A stretch of 64,000 bases of DNA from Promethearchaeota archaeon. Its GTDB lineage: Archaea > Asgardarchaeota > Lokiarchaeia > Sigyniarchaeales > SOKP01. The position numbers were made by a program, and so were the translations under genes. The notes under the pieces are model-generated. The model worked only from the letters and a program-made list of their open reading frames with translations, ran no database searches and had not been told where the DNA came from. Location: the NCBI GenBank assembly GCA_048940925.1, contig JBHLOC010000001.1:128001-192000 (forward strand), read 5' to 3'. Shown piece by piece: positions 43,696-62,927 of this stretch; position 1 is the first letter of the stretch, and each line of letters begins with the position of its first letter.

Positions 43696-43797
43696 CGGGC
43701 TATGAGGGATTTGAACCCCCGACCTGCCGGTATCCGCTACGAATTTTGTAATAGTCGCTTAAGAGCCGGTTGCGCTACCTGCCTGCGCCAATAGCCC
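43696..43797 (-). tRNA. tRNA-Lys(CTT) with 28-nt intron at 37/38 (43732..43759)
   Basis: Acceptor GGGCTAT/ATAGCCC, T-loop GGTTCAAATCC, anticodon loop CT-CTT-A^A. Confidence 0.9.
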
Positions 43798-43835
43798 TTT
43801 CATATAAATTTATAAAATTGTCAATATATACTTAG

Positions 43836-43945
43836 CGCAGACGGAGGGACTCGAACCCCCGAGCGCTTATGCGCACCGGCTCTCAATGTTATGATCTTCA
43901 TTATAGCACTCAAGGCCGGCGTCTTACCAACTAGGCTACGTCTGC
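43836..43945 (-). tRNA. tRNA-Ser(TGA) with 27-nt anticodon-loop intron (about 43882..43908)
   Basis: Acceptor GCAGACG/CGTCTGC, G73, long variable arm, CCGGC/GCCGG stem; exact junction ambiguous because TTGAG is repeated. Confidence 0.85.
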
Positions 43946-51675: not shown

Positions 51676-53595
51676 TTATTTCAACTCCTTTAATTTTTCT
51701 TTAATAGTGCTTTCTAGTTCTTTAGAAACAATAGCCCCATCTATTTTTCCTCTGACTTTTTTCATTACTTCTCCCATTAAGGGTCCTTTCGCTCTCATTT
51801 CTTTTTCTTTTATCATTTTAGTGTTTTTATCTACAATCTCAACTATTATATTTTTTAAATTTTCTAAAGAAATAGTCTCAATTTTTAATTTTTTCCTGAT
51901 CTGATTAATTGAGAGTTCTGGAAATTCTGCTTTAAGGCTCATGACTTGCTCAATTGCTTCTTTACTAATTTGCTTTTTTTTTAGTAGAGCAAAAATTTCA
52001 AGAAAATCATTGTCAGTTATGTTTTCTATAACTTTCCCTTCCCTTCTAAGGGCAGTTGTGGTTTCTAATAAAGTTGTAAAAACTAAAGAGGGATTATCAG
52101 GATAAATTTCAATTAAATCATCGAATAACTGGAGTTTTCCTGTAAAAATAAGATCTTTTATCAATCTATCTTCTGTTTTGTATTTTTTAGAATATTGTTT
52201 TATAGTTACCCAAGGATATTCTGGTAAATCTTTCCTTATTTCGTTAATTTCTTCTTCTGAATTAAATATAGCTTCTGTATCCGTATCAGGATATAATCTT
52301 GCACCCCCGTGAAGTTCTCTTAAGAATTCTGTATTTCCAGATTCAAGGGCCCTTCTTGTTTCAGGAGGAACTCCTTTAAATGTAAACTTCACACGATTAA
52401 TAATAACATTCATCACTTTATCCACTTCTTTCTTAGAACCTAAAACTAAAACAAAACAATCGTCTTCTTTAGATTCAAGTTTTTCTCTGATTTTCTTGAT
52501 ATCTTCATTTGAAAGATCGTAATTATTTAAGTTTTCATCAGAGTGAATTATTCCTTTTAATCCAGATAGAACTTTTACTTTACTACTAACTTCCGTTCCA
52601 AATCTATAATCTTTCATTAATTCTTTTCCAAAAATACCCTTAAATCCACTAAAATTAATTCCAAATAATTTCTTTCCAGATTTAATACCCTTAGATATAA
52701 ATTTAGAATTAGTTTTTGCTAAAACTCCAGATAAGTCTATAAAGTTCTCTTGAACATTATTTTCGTTCAATTTCTTGTTCTCAAGTTCTTCTTTTATTTC
52801 AATGAGTTTTATTTGTCGTGAAATTTCATGATTGATTAAAACGGGAATCCAGCTTAATTTTTGCACACCCTTTATCTCGATTCGCGTTCCTGCTTCAATG
52901 CTTACATTGATATCTTGTCTAATTGACCCAATAACTTTTTTTACTTTTGTTGACCATAATAATAATCCAATTCTTTCTGCGCATTCACGACATTCATAAG
53001 GATCGGTAATATCAGGTTTAGTTGTAACTTCCACTAATGGAATTCCTAAGCGATCTAATCGAAAATAATTTATTTTGTTTTCGGTTTTAATTTTTCGTGC
53101 AGCTTCTTCCTCTAAACTCAATATATCTATTCGGATTTTTTTATCATTTTCTAATATAATGAAACCATCTGTCCCAAGTATCATCGTGCGTTGGAAGCCA
53201 CATGGAACGCTTCCATCTAAGTAATTTTTTCTACAGACATGCATTTCTTCGATAATATTAGCATTAAGGAGCATCGCAATTTGTAGGGCTATTTGTTTGG
53301 CTTCATTACTACAGGAAAAAGGTGGTGTATCATCCAATTCATAAGTACAAACTACATCATTATAGCCTTCATAGGTAATTGCCATTCCTTTCTTGTATTC
53401 AGTAAGCATCGCCTTATCATAAACACCCAGCTCCCCCAAAACAGGACGCATTCTTCGATATATTGTAAAATCTGGAATTCGAGTCCCTTGAAGTTTAGCA
53501 GGACATCTACAGAATAATTTTTTCTCAGTGTCAAACTGTTGGTGAATCTCTAAGCCGCATTTAAGACCCAATTTTTCATAATTAAATTCTTCCAT
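51676..53595 (-). CDS. gatE: Glu-tRNA(Gln) amidotransferase subunit E
   Basis: GLEIHQQ, KLFCRCP, GFQRT, DRLGIPL, IRQDIN, RLYPDTD; start placed at ATG 53595. Confidence 0.96.
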   Translation of the reverse strand: MEEFNYEKLGLKCGLEIHQQFDTEKKLFCRCPAKLQGTRIPDFTIYRRMRPVLGELGVYDKAMLTEYKKGMAITYEGYNDVVCTYELDDTPPFSCSNEAKQIALQIAMLLNANIIEEMHVCRKNYLDGSVPCGFQRTMILGTDGFIILENDKKIRIDILSLEEEAARKIKTENKINYFRLDRLGIPLVEVTTKPDITDPYECRECAERIGLLLWSTKVKKVIGSIRQDINVSIEAGTRIEIKGVQKLSWIPVLINHEISRQIKLIEIKEELENKKLNENNVQENFIDLSGVLAKTNSKFISKGIKSGKKLFGINFSGFKGIFGKELMKDYRFGTEVSSKVKVLSGLKGIIHSDENLNNYDLSNEDIKKIREKLESKEDDCFVLVLGSKKEVDKVMNVIINRVKFTFKGVPPETRRALESGNTEFLRELHGGARLYPDTDTEAIFNSEEEINEIRKDLPEYPWVTIKQYSKKYKTEDRLIKDLIFTGKLQLFDDLIEIYPDNPSLVFTTLLETTTALRREGKVIENITDNDFLEIFALLKKKQISKEAIEQVMSLKAEFPELSINQIRKKLKIETISLENLKNIIVEIVDKNTKMIKEKEMRAKGPLMGEVMKKVRGKIDGAIVSKELESTIKEKLKELK

Positions 53596-53947
53596 TTTTA
53601 ATCGAAAATTACTTTTTAACTGATAATCAAATACAATCACTAGTCAAGTAATAAATCTTATAATTATTTTCAAAAAAGTTTTAGGATATGATAAAAAGGT
53701 TATTCTAAAAAGTAATTTCTGTGTTTAGTTTAGTTTACCAATATTTAATTTAATTATTTTAAACAATTTCAGAATTGTTCCTTCAAAGCAGAGGAGATAG
53801 TTATTGTCTGTTGGGTTATTTTCCTTTTTGATTAAGGTCTATTTGATAATATTTTAAATCATTATTTAAAATATTTGTCAAAAATATACATAATATGCTA
53901 TATAAAAAGCTATAATTAAGATTAATTCTTTTAAATATGAGTAAATC

Positions 53948-55613
53948 TCAATGATTTAGAGTTTTAGAGACATATACACCATCTATTTTATATCCCATTT
54001 CATAGAACCAATCTCTTGCTCCAATACCACTTATTACTACTAGTTTTTTTGCTCCAAATTCTTCAAATGAGGTTTTTTCAGCATTTTCCATTAATAATTT
54101 TCCATATCCTCTATGTTGTATTTGAATAAGTCGCTTGGGTTTCAAGTCTTTTGGAACCATTTCTCCAACTACCTTGATTTCCCTTACGATTAATGTTTTT
54201 CCATCATTTATTTCAGGTCTGTGGGCAAATTCAGAAGGCTTTCTTAAGCGTAAATATCCAATTAAATAATTTTCGATTTTATTCTCATAGGATAAGAATA
54301 TTTCTTTTCCCTGAGAAGCATCATAATCAAAACGATATAGTTTTATTTTATCAAAGGATTTCTCATCAATAAGTTCCTCTTTCTTACTAATCCCATATTC
54401 TCTACATCTAATACATTTGCAAGTTTCATCCCAACTTTTTAGTCTCTCTTGGACTAACTGTCTTAAATTGCTATTTTTACAACCTGCTTTGATTAATGTC
54501 GCAGGTATATCTCTCATTATTCTTTGAATTCTCACATAGGATGGAAGGTTTTTTTTAGCCATTGCAATTAATTCAATTAAGTCTTCATCCGAGTATGGTA
54601 AGTAATTTCCATTTTTCCACCAATTATGCAATTCAGTACCATCTATCACGAGAGTAGGATAAATTTTTAACATATCAGGTCGATAATCTGGATTAGAAAA
54701 TAAGCTATCAAATAATTTTAAATCTTTTTGAATAGTTGAACCGGGTAAATTTGGCATTACATGTGCATTGATTTTTAATCCTGCATCTTTAGCAATCCTT
54801 ATCGATTCAATGCTATCAGCAGTTGTATGCCCTCTTTTCACTAGATCATAGATTTCATTATAGACTGTTTGAATACCAATTTCGACTCGCGTTGTTCCAA
54901 AATTTAACATATTATCTACATGTGTCTCTTTACAATAATCTGGTCTTGTCTCAACGGTAATACCTATAACCCTTCTTTTAGATTTTTCTGCTAATAGCTT
55001 AGCTTCTTCCAAACTGCCTGTTTTTTGTTTTATTATTCCCTCTAATGCCCCTTTAACGAAATGTGTTTGATAATCTGGATCAGTTGATAAGAAAGTCCCA
55101 CCCATTATAATAAGTTCAATCTTTTATGGTGGCAAACAATTAAGCGTATACCATGTCCACTTTATGCCCAATGGCTTCTAAATCTTTTATTCGAGATTGA
55201 ACTTGCTTATAAGGATCATAATTGTTATGGATTGATCTCATCGCCGCTGGTTCTCTTCCTGTATATGATTGGGCAACTTTTTCCCCTGGTTGGGAGTTTA
55301 CTCCAGGACAGTATATACATGTTCCGGGACAAGGAAGAGGTTTAGTCATAATTGCTATTACTGAAACTCCTGAAATTGTTCTTGTTGTTCTTCTCTTCAA
55401 AAATTTATTGATAATCTCTTTTTCTTCATTTGTTGCATGGTGTATAATACTGGCATTTTTTATAACTCGATTATAATTATACTTTTTTCCAATTTGTCCT
55501 TTAAGGTTTGTTATTTTTCTGCGAGAAGTTTTAGGATTTTCTAAAAGATACTCAATTATTTCTCTTGCTATTTTCTTTACTATACTTGAGTTTATATTAT
55601 CTGATTGTTCCAT
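53948..55613 (-). CDS. elp3: tRNA U34 acetyltransferase Elp3, two exons (55155..55613 + 53948..55123), 544 aa after splicing
   Basis: Radical-SAM CPGTCIYC and QSYTGREP in exon 1; MGGTF, ETRPD, KIYPT, QHRGYG, ISGIGAR in exon 2; junction restores GHKVD|KIELIIMGGTF. Confidence 0.93.
55124..55154 (-). other. 31-nt BHB-type intron in elp3 mRNA
   Basis: GUGG/CCAU central helix, bulges AC^A and AA^A, inner stem UGGUAUACG/UGUUUGCCA; insert carries a stop and a frameshift. Confidence 0.85.
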
Positions 55614-56395
55614 TCTTAAATTAATTAATTTGATAGAAAGATTTAAATCTTCATGAAAATTATACTTTTCGATTTATCTTTTAATACAAATCTCAAGCAA
55701 TATGATTTCTATTTCAAAATAAAGGAAGAAAAAATAAGATACACTAAAAGATGGTTTCTATATCAGAAAAAGTACAAGTCAAAAAATTTATCTCCTTAAC
55801 ATCTATTATCAAATTTATCAAGCTTTTCAAAATATTCTAAACTCTAATCTAAACCTTTCATTTGCAATAAATTCTTTAAAGATGTATAATTGTTAATCCC
55901 AAATTTTCCTACAATTCTTTTTATTTTTATAATTAAACCTTGTTTATGCCATACTTGATATTTTTGATGCAAATCTGACCCAAATTCTGAATTAAGGATA
56001 TCAATAAAAAACTCCCGAATAGAAGGATCTCTAAATGTGCTTTATCCCTCAGGTTTATCTAAATATTTGAAGATTTCGTTAACATCTCTATCTATAAGAA
56101 AATATTATGCTAACTTGTAGGTAGTTATCTCAAAATATCCTAAAGTTTCTGAAATTAGTCTATTAAGTGTCATATGAGTTTTGATATCATACTTTTTAAA
56201 AAATTTTTGTAAGAAATTTTTTTGTTCTCTTGTATTTTGTTCAAATCATTAAGAATTGTAGATTCTAAATATTAGATTTAAATTTAAAGTTTCGAAAAAA
56301 TATTTTTTTGAAATTGTTTCATAAATATTTAAATATGGAATGTTACATATAGATTATAGTATGAAAAAATTTAACTTTAAGGTGATATATACAAA

Positions 56396-57922
56396 TTGTC
56401 GGGAGGTTTGAAAAACATTATCGCTACAGTTACAACTACAATTGAAGAAAAAGTTAATTTCAGTCAATTGGCAAGTAAATATTCCGAACTATTATATAAT
56501 CCCGAGAAGTTTCCTGGATTGATCATGCAGATAGAAAAACCGAAAGCAACGGTTGTGTTATTTTCCACTGGAAAAATGGTTATAACAGGACTTCAGCAAA
56601 CCTCAGATGTTGAAAAAGTAATGGAAAAAGTAATTGAGTTTTTTAGAGCTGAGGGAATAGAATTAAAAAATCTGGAAATTTCAATGGAAAGAGTAAAGCC
56701 AAAAAGAATAAAAATATGCCTATTAGGGGAAAAAGGTGTTGGAAAATCTACTTTAATGGACACAGTATTAAAATCTTCAGAGAAAGTTACAACTAAAAAA
56801 CAAAAAGATATTATCGGAGTAGATTTTTTTAATGTAAAAGTTAGAGATATTGATGGTAAGGACGTTATTCTACAATTATGGAATATAATTGACGAAGAAC
56901 GTTTTAAACAAATTCAGCAAAATTATTATGTGGGCGCTGATGGAGGGATTATATTCTATGATATCACAAATAAATCCAGTTTTGAAAATCTTGATAATTA
57001 TGTTTCAGCATTTAGAAAATCAAAAAGAAATCGAAACATCCCTATTATTTTGGTTGGAAATAAATTCGATCTTCGAGAAAATAGAGAAGTCTCGCAAACT
57101 GAAGCTTCCAAGGTAGTGGTTACTCGTAAAATGGTAGGTTATCTTGAATTTTCTGCGCTAGATAGTCAAAATGTAATTAAATTATTTGAATCAATTTGCC
57201 GAATTATAATACGGAAAAAAAACTTAATCTCTATTTCTGAAGCTTTGGAAAATGATCTTAATTTAAGAATTTTGATGAATTTACAAATATTTAAAGAATT
57301 AAGTTTGGTAGAGATCTCGAAAAGAGTTGTTAAAAGTAAAGCCACTATTTCTCGTCATACTCGAAATTTAATTAAGCTAGGTCTAATTGAATCTCATGTT
57401 AAAGAGATAGAACCGCAAACAGGTACGATTAAGCGAAAATATTATACATTAAGTAAAGATTTGAGCTATCATATAGAAAAAAGAGATTTTAATTTTTCTC
57501 AATTGAAATCAAGAATAAAATGGAAGATATTTTCAGAGTTTTATCTAAAAAAACTATATAATTTCAAAACAGTTAATCTCTTATCAAAAAGATTAAATAA
57601 TATGCTAGAAGATTTTAATAATCATATTTTTGGTGGTTTTCCGGCACTCATAAAGCAATATGGAAAATATATTGAAAATTTACCTATAAATTTTCAATTT
57701 TTAAATGAAAAGCAAAATCAAAAAGTTCAGTCTCTATTACTAAAATTTGATTCAAAATTAAGAGATATATTAGCAGATGATGATGGTTCAGAGAAGTCTT
57801 ATTTATTTTTGAATATGACGCTTCCAACAGTGGATTTAATAAATCTCTTTGAAAAACCTGAACTGTTTAACCATATAATTCTAAATCGAGAGATTAAAAA
57901 AGAGAAAAAAGGTTTTGAATAA
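56396..57922 (+). CDS. Fusion protein: single TBP-like repeat + Rab-like small GTPase + ArsR-type winged HTH + C-terminal domain
   Basis: NIIAT...YNPEKFPGLI...LFSTGKMVITG; GEKGVGKS, IGVDF, NKFD, EFSA; LSLVEISKRVVKSKATISRHTRNLIKLGLI. Confidence 0.85.
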   Translation: MSGGLKNIIATVTTTIEEKVNFSQLASKYSELLYNPEKFPGLIMQIEKPKATVVLFSTGKMVITGLQQTSDVEKVMEKVIEFFRAEGIELKNLEISMERVKPKRIKICLLGEKGVGKSTLMDTVLKSSEKVTTKKQKDIIGVDFFNVKVRDIDGKDVILQLWNIIDEERFKQIQQNYYVGADGGIIFYDITNKSSFENLDNYVSAFRKSKRNRNIPIILVGNKFDLRENREVSQTEASKVVVTRKMVGYLEFSALDSQNVIKLFESICRIIIRKKNLISISEALENDLNLRILMNLQIFKELSLVEISKRVVKSKATISRHTRNLIKLGLIESHVKEIEPQTGTIKRKYYTLSKDLSYHIEKRDFNFSQLKSRIKWKIFSEFYLKKLYNFKTVNLLSKRLNNMLEDFNNHIFGGFPALIKQYGKYIENLPINFQFLNEKQNQKVQSLLLKFDSKLRDILADDDGSEKSYLFLNMTLPTVDLINLFEKPELFNHIILNREIKKEKKGFE

Positions 57923-62235: not shown

Positions 62236-62927
62236 AAGAATTCAGTTATTTTTCTATTTGCCACCTCTTCATTTAATATATTTTTAGTTGTATCCCATGA
62301 TTTCCTTGCAATTTGTGGTGCTTTTTTATGTTTTTTTACCCATACTCGAAGAAATTCTATAGTTGTTACATCAGAGGGATATCCCGATCCAAATTCTCCA
62401 TACTTTTTTTTTAATTCGTCTATTGAGGTGTCTCTTTTATTTTTTGCAATTATAGATCCAGCTGAAACTATTGGATAAATATCATCAGCTTTATGTTTCG
62501 AAATTATTCTTTTAGGTTTGTAATTTAGTAATTTTTTGATTGACCGACCAAATCTTTCTTCATTTACATCAGCAGCATCAACATATATGATGTCTGGTTT
62601 TAAAATATTAATAATTTCAGCCATTTTTAATTCTTCAAGTCGATTCATCGTAATATTCTTTTCCTTTCTCTGATCTATCTCTTCAGGATCTACTATGATA
62701 ATTTTATAGGAATAACAATTGTTTTTGATAAGTTTAGATAATTGACTCCTCCTTTTGGTTGATAATTTTTTTGAATCTTTAACCCCAATTTCAGATAAAA
62801 ATTCTAATTTATGATTAGTAAAACAGACGCCACAAATAACCATAGGACCTAAGACAGAGCCTTTTAACATATAATTCGATCTGAATTATTTTCTGCCAGC
62901 CTCGTCTATACCACAAATTACTTCCAA
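62232..62927 (-). CDS. rnhB: Ribonuclease HII, two exons (62893..62927 + 62232..62862), 221 aa after splicing
   Basis: Exon 1 from TTG gives LEVICGIDEAG; junction restores DEAGR|GSVLGPMV; exon 2 has DSKKL, HKAD, VSAGSIIAK, GSGYPSD. Confidence 0.93.
62863..62892 (-). other. 30-nt BHB intron in rnhB mRNA
   Basis: UGGC/GUUA central helix, bulges AG^A and AA^A, inner stem AAAUAAUUC/GAAUUAUAU, outer GAGGC/GGCUC; in-frame UAA inside. Confidence 0.87.

What the first reader, a model, noticed from the sequence alone, without database searches (positions are those of the whole stretch)
55124..55154. 31-nt BHB-like intron explains the apparent frameshift in elp3
The two ORFs (157 aa and 385 aa) join to a 544-aa Elp3 if 31 nt are removed. 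Fold: GUGG-AC^A-UGGUAUACG-CUUAAU-UGUUUGCCA-CCAU-AA^A-AG. Structure-predicted cuts give GUG GAC|AAG AUU GAA (VD|KIE), restoring GHKVDKIELIIMGGTF. The outer exon-exon helix is weak, so the motif is a relaxed bulge-helix-loop form, implying a broad-specificity endonuclease (inference). A tRNA-modifying enzyme whose mRNA needs the tRNA splicing enzyme suggests feedback coupling (speculative).
Basis: partly seen in the sequence, partly recalled or inferred. Interest (0 to 1): 0.88.

Follow-up and report, generated by a model that had tools for sequence, protein, structure and literature searches.

The report
tRNA-type mini-intron in Asgard elp3
The only gene for the tRNA-modifying enzyme Elp3 in this Asgard (Loki-type) archaeon is broken by a 31-base insert shaped like a tRNA intron. 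Nineteen independent assemblies keep the insert while both gene halves stay under selection, so the mRNA is almost certainly cut and rejoined by the tRNA-splicing enzymes, although no spliced RNA could be examined.

Summary
On the minus strand, elp3 is interrupted at 55154-55124 by 31 nt, exactly between codons D153 and K. Removing them gives a 544-aa Elp3 that aligns without a gap to solved Elp3 structures.

The insert folds as a relaxed bulge-helix-bulge (HBh') motif: a 4-bp helix GUGG/CCAU, 3-nt bulges ACA and AAA, and a 9-bp inner stem. The standard cut rule gives exactly the alignment-defined junction.

I found the same 31-nt insert at the same site in 19 alleles: 5 reference genomes of three genera and 14 metagenome contigs. 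The inner stem shows compensatory changes, and dN/dS is about 0.1 on both exons. About 135 other Lokiarchaeia genomes have an uninterrupted elp3. Stop codons in both frames rule out a simple frameshift.

[quoted passage not shown] At least five other genes of this genome carry 30-31-nt inserts of the same geometry inside a single Pfam domain. This argues against an Elp3-specific feedback loop.

New here: the intron-bearing exon 1 forms one clade while exon 2 follows the host lineages, so the intron moves by recombination patches.

No RNA evidence was obtainable. This scan has flagged the same elp3 intron, and the class, on other Asgard DNA before.

The parts
55155..55613 (-). elp3 exon 1 (153 codons: ELP3_N domain and the radical-SAM Cys cluster CPGTCIYC; ends GHKVD)
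   Evidence: Pfam ELP3_N; aligns to PDB 6ia8 residues 11-133.
55124..55154 (-). 31-nt intron. It has TAA in the exon-1 frame at nt 13-15 and TAA in the exon-2 frame at nt 29-31.
   Evidence: absent from 42 compared intronless orthologues at exactly this point; present with the same length in 19 alleles.
53948..55123 (-). elp3 exon 2 (391 codons plus stop; rest of the radical-SAM domain, Radical_SAM_C and the GNAT part)
   Evidence: aligns to PDB 6ia8 from residue 134 to the end, E 6.6e-115.
55157..55160 (-). central helix H, 5' strand GUGG (exon 1: Val codon GUG plus the G of the Asp codon)
   Evidence: pairs with CCAU in 18/18 distinct alleles. The Val codon is GTG in all 19 intron-bearing alleles, but in only 3 of 42 intronless ones.
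55154..55156 (-). 5' bulge ACA; predicted cut after the second nt (between 55155 and 55154)
   Evidence: The bulge is ACA, AUA or ACU in other alleles.
55145..55153 (-). inner helix h', 5' strand (9 nt)
   Evidence: 90% of cells paired; 5 of 9 pairs changed on both sides.
55139..55144 (-). 6-nt loop of the intron hairpin
   Evidence: sequence varies, length is constant.
55130..55138 (-). inner helix h', 3' strand (9 nt)
55126..55129 (-). central helix H, 3' strand CCAU (intron)
   Evidence: invariant.
55123..55125 (-). 3' bulge AAA; predicted cut after the second nt (between 55124 and 55123)
   Evidence: invariant in all 19 alleles.
55194..55204 (-). exon-1 segment complementary to 55122-55112; possible distal outer helix, unproven
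   Evidence: 11/11 pairs here and 10-11/11 in 13 of 18 alleles that could be scored; only 7-8/11 in the other five, with no compensating changes.
55112..55122 (-). exon-2 segment directly 3' of the 3' bulge; partner of 55204-55194

Best explanation
The 31 nt at 55154-55124 are an archaeal bulge-helix-bulge (relaxed HBh') intron inside the elp3 coding sequence. In the pre-mRNA, the last bases of exon 1 (GUGG) pair with CCAU near the 3' end of the intron. This sets up two 3-nt bulges on opposite strands, next to a 9-bp intron hairpin. The two-subunit splicing endonuclease EndA, whose alpha subunit has the Crenarchaea-type specificity loop, cuts after the second base of each bulge. RtcB then joins the exons to read ..GTG GAC|AAG ATT.., giving a 544-aa Elp3, and probably circularises the intron. 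Shown here: the anatomy, the conservation and covariation, the selection on both exons, the presence of the enzymes, and the same insert type in other genes of this genome. Inferred: the cleavage and ligation themselves. At the DNA level the intron is inherited and exchanged between lineages on recombination patches that include exon 1.
For: (1) The junction is gapless against solved Elp3 structures and against 42 intronless orthologues.
(2) The geometry H(4 bp)-B(3)-h'(9 bp)-loop-h'-H-B(3) is the MFE fold. It has the same strand order and cut rule as canonical tRNA introns, and as two tRNA introns of this genome. The background frequency of such geometry is 7.3e-5 per position.
(3) There are 19 alleles from independent assemblies, all 31 nt and all at the same site. 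93.2% of pair cells are paired against at most 57% with slid partners. Five pairs changed on both sides, and 0 of 500 shuffles reach the covariation score.
(4) Selection: G000 against G024 gives dN/dS 0.136 at dS 0.68, within or just above the range of intronless pairs, 0.063-0.133. Over 78 pairs of 13 full-length intron alleles the median is 0.107 for exon 1 and 0.093 for exon 2, and no allele has an extra stop.
(5) The four codons KIEL lie between the in-frame TAA and the first ATG of exon 2. They vary only at third positions, synonymously, so they are translated in this frame.
(6) TAA in frame 0 (intron nt 13-15) and TAA in the exon-2 frame (nt 29-31) leave no overlap for a frameshift.
(7) This is the only elp3 in a genome estimated 100% complete.
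(8) The EndA alpha subunit (198 aa, Tyr/His/Lys present) aligns end to end with A. pernix alpha, including Lys44 of the specificity loop. The beta subunit (200 aa) lacks the Tyr and His. RtcB is present. Asgard (alpha-beta)2 EndA with the L1 loop is described in PMC5829648.
(9) 30-31-nt inserts of the same geometry split single Pfam domains in at least four other genes of this genome (EF-2-like GTPase, methylmalonyl-CoA mutase, Ras-family GTPase, RNase HII), with GH38 and an AIR-synthase-like gene as partly supported candidates.
Against: There is no adjacent outer exon-exon helix, so the motif is not a strict hBHBh'. The distal complement shows no covariation. The H helix and the bulges never vary, so they carry no covariation signal. 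Part of that invariance is imposed by coding (Val and Asp codons), and for 7 of the 19 alleles by my DNA search pattern. In a 150-nt context the MFE of two alleles uses competing pairings. Exon 2 has an ATG six codons in, so two separate polypeptides cannot be strictly excluded. The alleles are related, so counts over them are not independent.
Confidence: 0.85

Rival explanations
1. The gene is split and makes two polypeptides that assemble into an active Elp3: a 157-aa N-terminal piece, and a 383-385-aa piece starting at the ATG of MGGTF. The insert is merely a spacer.
For: Both ORFs are intact. Exon 2 has an in-frame ATG six codons after the junction in all alleles.
Against: The split would fall inside the radical-SAM domain. 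The six codons KIELII upstream of that ATG would go untranslated, yet KIEL varies only synonymously across 19 alleles. The C-terminal tail added to exon 1 differs between alleles, for example MVYA* here and a 12-residue tail in G024. A spacer would not need a constant 31-nt length, an invariant H helix and a co-varying stem.
Confidence: 0.05
2. The insert is an inactivating insertion and elp3 is a pseudogene in these lineages.
For: The raw frame is broken, and gene callers report two fragments.
Against: The insert has persisted through dS of about 0.7 to over 2 between alleles without one further stop or indel. dN/dS is about 0.1 on both exons. It is the only elp3 copy in a genome estimated 100% complete.
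Confidence: 0.03
3. The full-length protein is made by translational recoding, either a +1 frameshift or ribosome hopping over the insert, not by RNA splicing.
For: 31 nt is one more than a multiple of three. In G024 frame 0 stays open through the insert.
Against: In this genome frame 0 closes at intron nt 13-15, and in all alleles the exon-2 frame is closed by TAA up to the junction, so the frames do not overlap. There are no matching take-off and landing codons around the gap. A stem that co-varies and exact BHB geometry are not features of known frameshift sites.
Confidence: 0.02
4. The insert is removed from the RNA, but by an enzyme other than EndA/RtcB.
For: Cleavage was not tested. The outer helix is missing, so the substrate is not canonical.
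Against: The cuts required by the protein alignment are exactly those of the EndA rule. The genome has the broad-specificity EndA type and RtcB. The cbf5 precedent uses EndA on relaxed motifs (PMC2738675).
Confidence: 0.05

Closest known systems
cbf5 pre-mRNA intron of Crenarchaeota (Aeropyrum, Sulfolobales, Desulfurococcales; PMC2738675 and the work cited there)
   Same: A short BHB-type intron inside a protein-coding gene for an RNA-modification enzyme. It often has a relaxed motif, in hosts with a heterotetrameric EndA that carries the Crenarchaea-specific loop. Its phylogenetic distribution is patchy and was read as gain and loss.
   Different: The host gene (elp3, not cbf5), the phylum (Lokiarchaeia/Promethearchaeota, Asgard) and the intron sequence all differ. 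Splicing of cbf5 was shown experimentally; here it was not. Here the intron-bearing exon 1 forms its own clade across genera, which points to transfer on recombination patches.
[quoted passage not shown]
   Same: The 4-bp helix, 3-nt bulges, cut positions and size range are the same. tRNA introns of this genome have H helices followed by the bulge AC^A, like elp3. The enzymes are presumably the same.
   Different: [quoted passage not shown] There is no tRNA body to help recognition. The papers I could search do not mention mRNA introns in Asgard archaea.
HAC1/XBP1 unconventional mRNA splicing in eukaryotes (Ire1 plus tRNA ligase)
   Same: A small intron is cut out of an mRNA by a structure-specific endonuclease, the exons are joined by the tRNA ligase (RtcB in animals), and excision changes the reading frame.
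   Different: The nuclease (Ire1) and the motif (paired stem-loops) are different, and the splicing is regulated by stress. This comparison rests on my own knowledge and was not tested here.

Membership tests
Archaeal BHB intron (EndA substrate) | [quoted passage not shown] | tested here: met
   GUGG-ACA ... CCAU-AAA in the MFE fold; present in 18/18 distinct alleles.
Archaeal BHB intron (EndA substrate) | Inner helix h' directly adjoining H | tested here: met
   9-bp stem with 90% of cells paired, 5 pairs with changes on both sides, slid controls at most 57%.
Archaeal BHB intron (EndA substrate) | Outer exon-exon helix h adjoining H (strict hBHBh') | tested here: not met
   The adjacent positions are A.A, A.G and A.A mismatches. 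Only a distal 11-nt complement exists, without covariation. The motif is therefore the relaxed HBh' form, which broad-specificity EndAs are reported to cut (PMC5829648).
Archaeal BHB intron (EndA substrate) | Cutting after the second nt of each bulge gives the functional product | tested here: met
   It gives VD|KIE, gapless against PDB Elp3 and against 42 intronless orthologues.
Archaeal BHB intron (EndA substrate) | Host encodes an EndA able to cut relaxed motifs, and an RNA ligase | tested here: met
   An alpha subunit with the specificity loop and Tyr/His/Lys, plus a non-catalytic beta subunit; RtcB.
Archaeal BHB intron (EndA substrate) | Spliced RNA (exon-exon junction, excised or circular intron) exists | not testable with these tools
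No spliced contig was found.
Pseudogene | Relaxed selection and further disabling mutations after the break | tested here: not met
   dN/dS about 0.1 on both exons; no extra stops in 13 full-length alleles.
Programmed frameshift / bypass | An overlap of the two open frames, or matched take-off and landing codons | tested here: not met
   TAA closes frame 0 at intron nt 13-15, and TAA closes the exon-2 frame at nt 29-31.

The most novel reading that the evidence does not exclude
The elp3 insert is one member of a genome-wide set of EndA-spliced mRNA mini-introns in Lokiarchaeia. These introns are mobile at the DNA level without any intron-encoded protein: they pass between genera on 0.5-1.3-kb homologous-recombination patches that carry the flanking exon. 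The closest prokaryotic relatives of eukaryotes would then hold a spreading population of protein-gene introns that depend on a host RNA-splicing machine.
Probability: 0.45. Interest if true: 0.8.

Novelty: new member of a known kind. Interest (0 to 1): 0.66.

Why it matters
In the papers I could search, splicing of an archaeal coding sequence by the tRNA endonuclease is documented for one gene only, cbf5 in Crenarchaeota. An essential-looking tRNA-modification gene in Asgard archaea that can be read only after such splicing extends the phenomenon to the lineage closest to eukaryotes, together with at least five further genes in the same genome. It offers a simple, testable substrate: a 31-nt intron with defined mutations in the H helix. 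It also shows how such introns spread and persist, and it warns annotators that two-piece genes in these genomes are not pseudogenes.

Tried and rejected
Things tried that gave no positive result:
- Search for a spliced transcript among full-length proteins with an intron-type exon 1: the best hit (P0123, a Logan contig) has the intronless-type junction GTTGAT|AAA and AGT AGA codons, so it is an ordinary intronless mosaic allele.
- Other copies of the intron in this genome: blastn-short found only chance 11-14-nt matches.
- Rfam with permissive thresholds on 53000-57000: no match.
The extra DNA in G103 encodes a small membrane-like ORF with no family.
- Internal stops reported in the elp3 of G065 and G154: one is a TGA in place of a Gly codon nine residues from the end, the other is the natural stop. 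Neither is an intron.
- Genome-wide scan by geometry and open frames alone: 6698 and then 642 candidates, mostly adjacent genes. It was usable only after a length filter and Pfam checks.
- Distal outer helix: conserved in one sub-lineage, no compensating change.
- Frameshift, hopping, split protein and pseudogene: considered and rejected, as set out under the rivals.
- ARAGORN intron positions were too imprecise to compare most tRNA introns; only two could be matched to the geometry.

Full report
**What is there.** The window is AT-rich (about 30% G+C). It belongs to a 4.8-Mb, 90-contig genome with completeness estimated at 100%. Database names for its nearest Elp3 proteins and for matching contigs read 'Promethearchaeota archaeon' or 'Candidatus Lokiarchaeota', that is, Asgard of the Loki type.

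On the minus strand, elp3 is in two frames:
- Exon 1 is 55613-55155: 153 codons, ending GHKVD.
- Exon 2 is 55123-53948: 391 codons, beginning KIELIIMGGTF.
- 31 nt lie between them (55154-55124).

Pfam finds ELP3_N in the first piece, and Radical_SAM plus Radical_SAM_C in the second. Against the solved Elp3 structure 6ia8, exon 1 ends at chain residue 133 and exon 2 starts at residue 134. Deleting exactly these 31 nt therefore restores a gapless 544-aa protein. The genome has no second elp3.

**Not a frameshift site.** Read in the exon-1 frame, the insert has TAA at its nt 13-15. Read in the exon-2 frame, its last three bases are TAA. The two open frames never overlap, so no single ribosomal frameshift can join them. 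No matching take-off and landing codons exist for hopping.

**The RNA shape.**
GUGG (the end of exon 1) pairs with CCAU (intron nt 26-29).
- On the 5' strand, GUGG is followed by the 3-nt bulge ACA and a 9-nt stem arm. On the 3' strand, the other stem arm runs straight into CCAU and is followed by the 3-nt bulge AAA.
- This is the strand order of the canonical tRNA BHB, where each helix strand is followed 3' by its bulge (established knowledge of the motif; see also 10.64898/2026.10.13.758758).
- Cutting after the second base of each bulge gives GAC|AAG, the junction the protein alignment requires.
- The folding energy by itself is unremarkable (z = -0.74). The geometry at a fixed place is not: over both strands of this genome, a 4-bp H helix plus at least 8 of 9 inner pairs at spacing 31 occurs at 7.3e-5 of positions.
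- The adjacent outer exon-exon helix is absent, so this is the relaxed HBh' form.
- An 11-nt stretch of exon 1 (55204-55194) is perfectly complementary to the 11 nt that follow the 3' bulge, and it enters the MFE fold of the longer context. Of the 18 alleles that could be scored (one contig is truncated), it is kept at 10-11 of 11 pairs in 13. The other five fall to 7-8 pairs with no compensation. I leave it as a possibility.

**Comparative evidence.**
- A protein search of 161 Lokiarchaeia genomes found elp3 in 140. Five carry a break at this point: this genome and G024 (same genus), G102 and G103 (a second genus), and G097 (a third). The others have open frames of about 540-570 aa, or are cut by contig ends.
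- A DNA pattern scan added seven metagenome contigs.
- Look-ups of seven exon-2-only proteins from the protein search added seven more contigs. These seven were found without any constraint on the intron sequence.
- All 19 alleles have a 31-nt insert at the same codon boundary.
- On their alignment, the H helix and both bulges are present in every allele. 93.2% of pair cells are standard pairs, against 19-57% when partners are slid. Five of the nine inner-stem pairs show changes on both sides, for example G-C to A-U, C-G to G-C and U-A to C-G. No shuffle out of 500 reaches the observed covariation score.
- H never varies, so it carries no covariation signal. For seven alleles its invariance was imposed by my pattern; for the other twelve it was not.
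- All 19 intron-bearing alleles use GTG for the valine whose third base pairs in H. Only 3 of 42 intronless ones do.

**Selection.**
- Between this genome and G024, NG86 dN/dS is 0.136 at dS 0.68. By exon it is 0.118 for exon 1 and 0.131 for exon 2. Intronless pairs give 0.063-0.133.
- Thirteen full-length intron alleles have both exons intact. Over their 78 pairs (which are not independent), median dN/dS is 0.107 for exon 1 and 0.093 for exon 2.
- The codons KIEL lie after the TAA and before the first ATG of exon 2. They vary only at third positions, and only synonymously.

Together these results reject a pseudogene. They argue strongly against two separately translated pieces.

**The machinery.**
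- The genome has two EndA homologues.
- One (198 aa) aligns end to end with the catalytic alpha subunit of Aeropyrum pernix EndA (3p1z_B, E 4e-33). The alignment includes the stretch with Lys44 of the Crenarchaea-specific loop and the catalytic Tyr, His and Lys.
- The other (200 aa) has the Tyr and His replaced, as in structural beta subunits.
- This matches the published picture of Asgard (alpha-beta)2 EndA with the L1 loop, the type that cuts relaxed motifs (PMC5829648).
- RtcB is present once, 28 kb beyond the window.
- ARAGORN finds only 34 tRNA genes and places introns in 22 of them. This fits the heavily interrupted Asgard tRNA genes reported in PMC11291895.
- Two tRNA introns whose borders I could match have 4-bp H helices followed by AC^A, as in elp3.

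**Not special to elp3.**
- In the same window, rnhB carries a 30-nt insert with an in-frame TAA between the codons of DEAGR|G. It has a UGGC/GUUA helix, AGA and AAA bulges and a 7-9-bp stem. Its exon 2 starts at position 9 of the RNase_HII profile.
- A geometry-first scan of the genome, followed by Pfam, showed 30-31-nt inserts of the same form splitting single domains in three genes:
  - an EF-2-like GTPase;
  - methylmalonyl-CoA mutase (profile 2-54 | 58-449);
  - a Ras-family GTPase (1-58 | 60-157).
- A GH38 gene and an AIR-synthase-like gene are partly supported by the same scan.
- The hosts are functionally unrelated, so the proposed feedback between Elp3 and tRNA splicing has no support.
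- Earlier notes of this scan list the same class in this genome and others, and the same elp3 intron in at least three other genomes. I used them as leads only.

**How it spreads.**
- On the whole gene, and on distal exon 2, the intron-bearing alleles sit in three separate places, each next to intronless relatives. Holding them together on distal exon 2 is rejected (p-AU 2.5e-40).
- On exon 1 alone, the four usable alleles form one clade: support 93/95, present in 94% of bootstrap trees.
- Exon 1 rejects the exon-2 groupings for G103+G104 (p-AU 0.024) and for this genome's group (0.013). It does not reject them for G097+G098 (0.10). These groups were named after seeing the trees.
- G103 (intron) and G104 (no intron) are 93-99% identical over 7 kb of synteny. 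The exception is a patch of about 1.3 kb that runs from an upstream indel through exon 1 and the intron to about 100-130 nt into exon 2. There, identity falls to 67-81%.
- Eighteen of the 19 intron alleles use TCT for a serine 40 nt upstream, where all intronless ones have AGY. One allele (L075) has the intron with AGT.
- The simplest reading is that the intron is gained or lost by homologous replacement of a gene segment, not by a dedicated mobility enzyme. The direction of each event is not resolved.
- The intron has no other copy in the genome.

**What is missing.** There is no RNA evidence. The only full-length protein with an exon 1 close to the intron type is an ordinary intronless allele.

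**Novelty.** Full-text searches found cbf5 of Crenarchaeota as the documented case of a BHB intron inside an archaeal coding sequence (PMC2738675), and found papers on Asgard tRNA introns. They found nothing on Asgard mRNA introns or on elp3. Subscription journals are not covered. I file this as a new member of a known kind, with about 0.85 confidence in the mechanism.

Noticed in passing
window 62863-62892 (minus strand): rnhB (RNase HII) carries a 30-nt insert with an in-frame TAA inside the catalytic DEAGRG motif. It has helix UGGC/GUUA, bulges AGA and AAA, and an inner stem of 7-9 bp. Exon 2 starts at position 9 of the RNase_HII profile.
   Followed up: partly
L077, L078, L079, L080, L081 (G000 contigs C32, C71, C78, C43, C30): 30-31-nt inserts of the same HBh' geometry split an EF-2-like GTPase, methylmalonyl-CoA mutase and a Ras-family GTPase inside one Pfam domain. 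A GH38 gene and an AIR-synthase-like gene are partly supported candidates.
   Followed up: partly
G000 contig C62, minus strand, near + coordinate 7990 (region C62:6759-8239): The RNA polymerase A'-like motif ..CMGHFG is followed by a candidate 32-nt insert. The frame after it reads 11 unexpected residues before IKLARPVIH, so the true intron may be longer or placed differently.
   Followed up: no
window 55614-56395: A 780-nt stretch upstream of elp3 holds only broken minus-strand frames and has no Pfam match. In G103 against G104, the divergent recombination patch also includes a roughly 750-nt upstream indel with a small membrane-like ORF.
   Followed up: partly
whole genome (G000); window 43696-43945: ARAGORN finds only 34 tRNA genes and places introns in 22 of them. 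These include tRNA-Lys(CTT) and tRNA-Ser(TGA) in this window, with 27-28-nt introns. Many tRNA genes are probably too interrupted to be detected.
   Followed up: partly
L036 (G065 elp3): TGA stands in place of a conserved Gly codon nine residues before the C-terminus of an otherwise intact elp3. This is a truncation or a sequencing error, not an intron.
   Followed up: partly
L082 (Logan contig SRR30652694_12772): An intronless elp3 whose exon 1 is 83-87% identical to the intron-type exon 1 over most of its length, but whose last 80 nt or so are of the intronless type. This is another mosaic, consistent with short-patch conversion around the intron site.
   Followed up: partly
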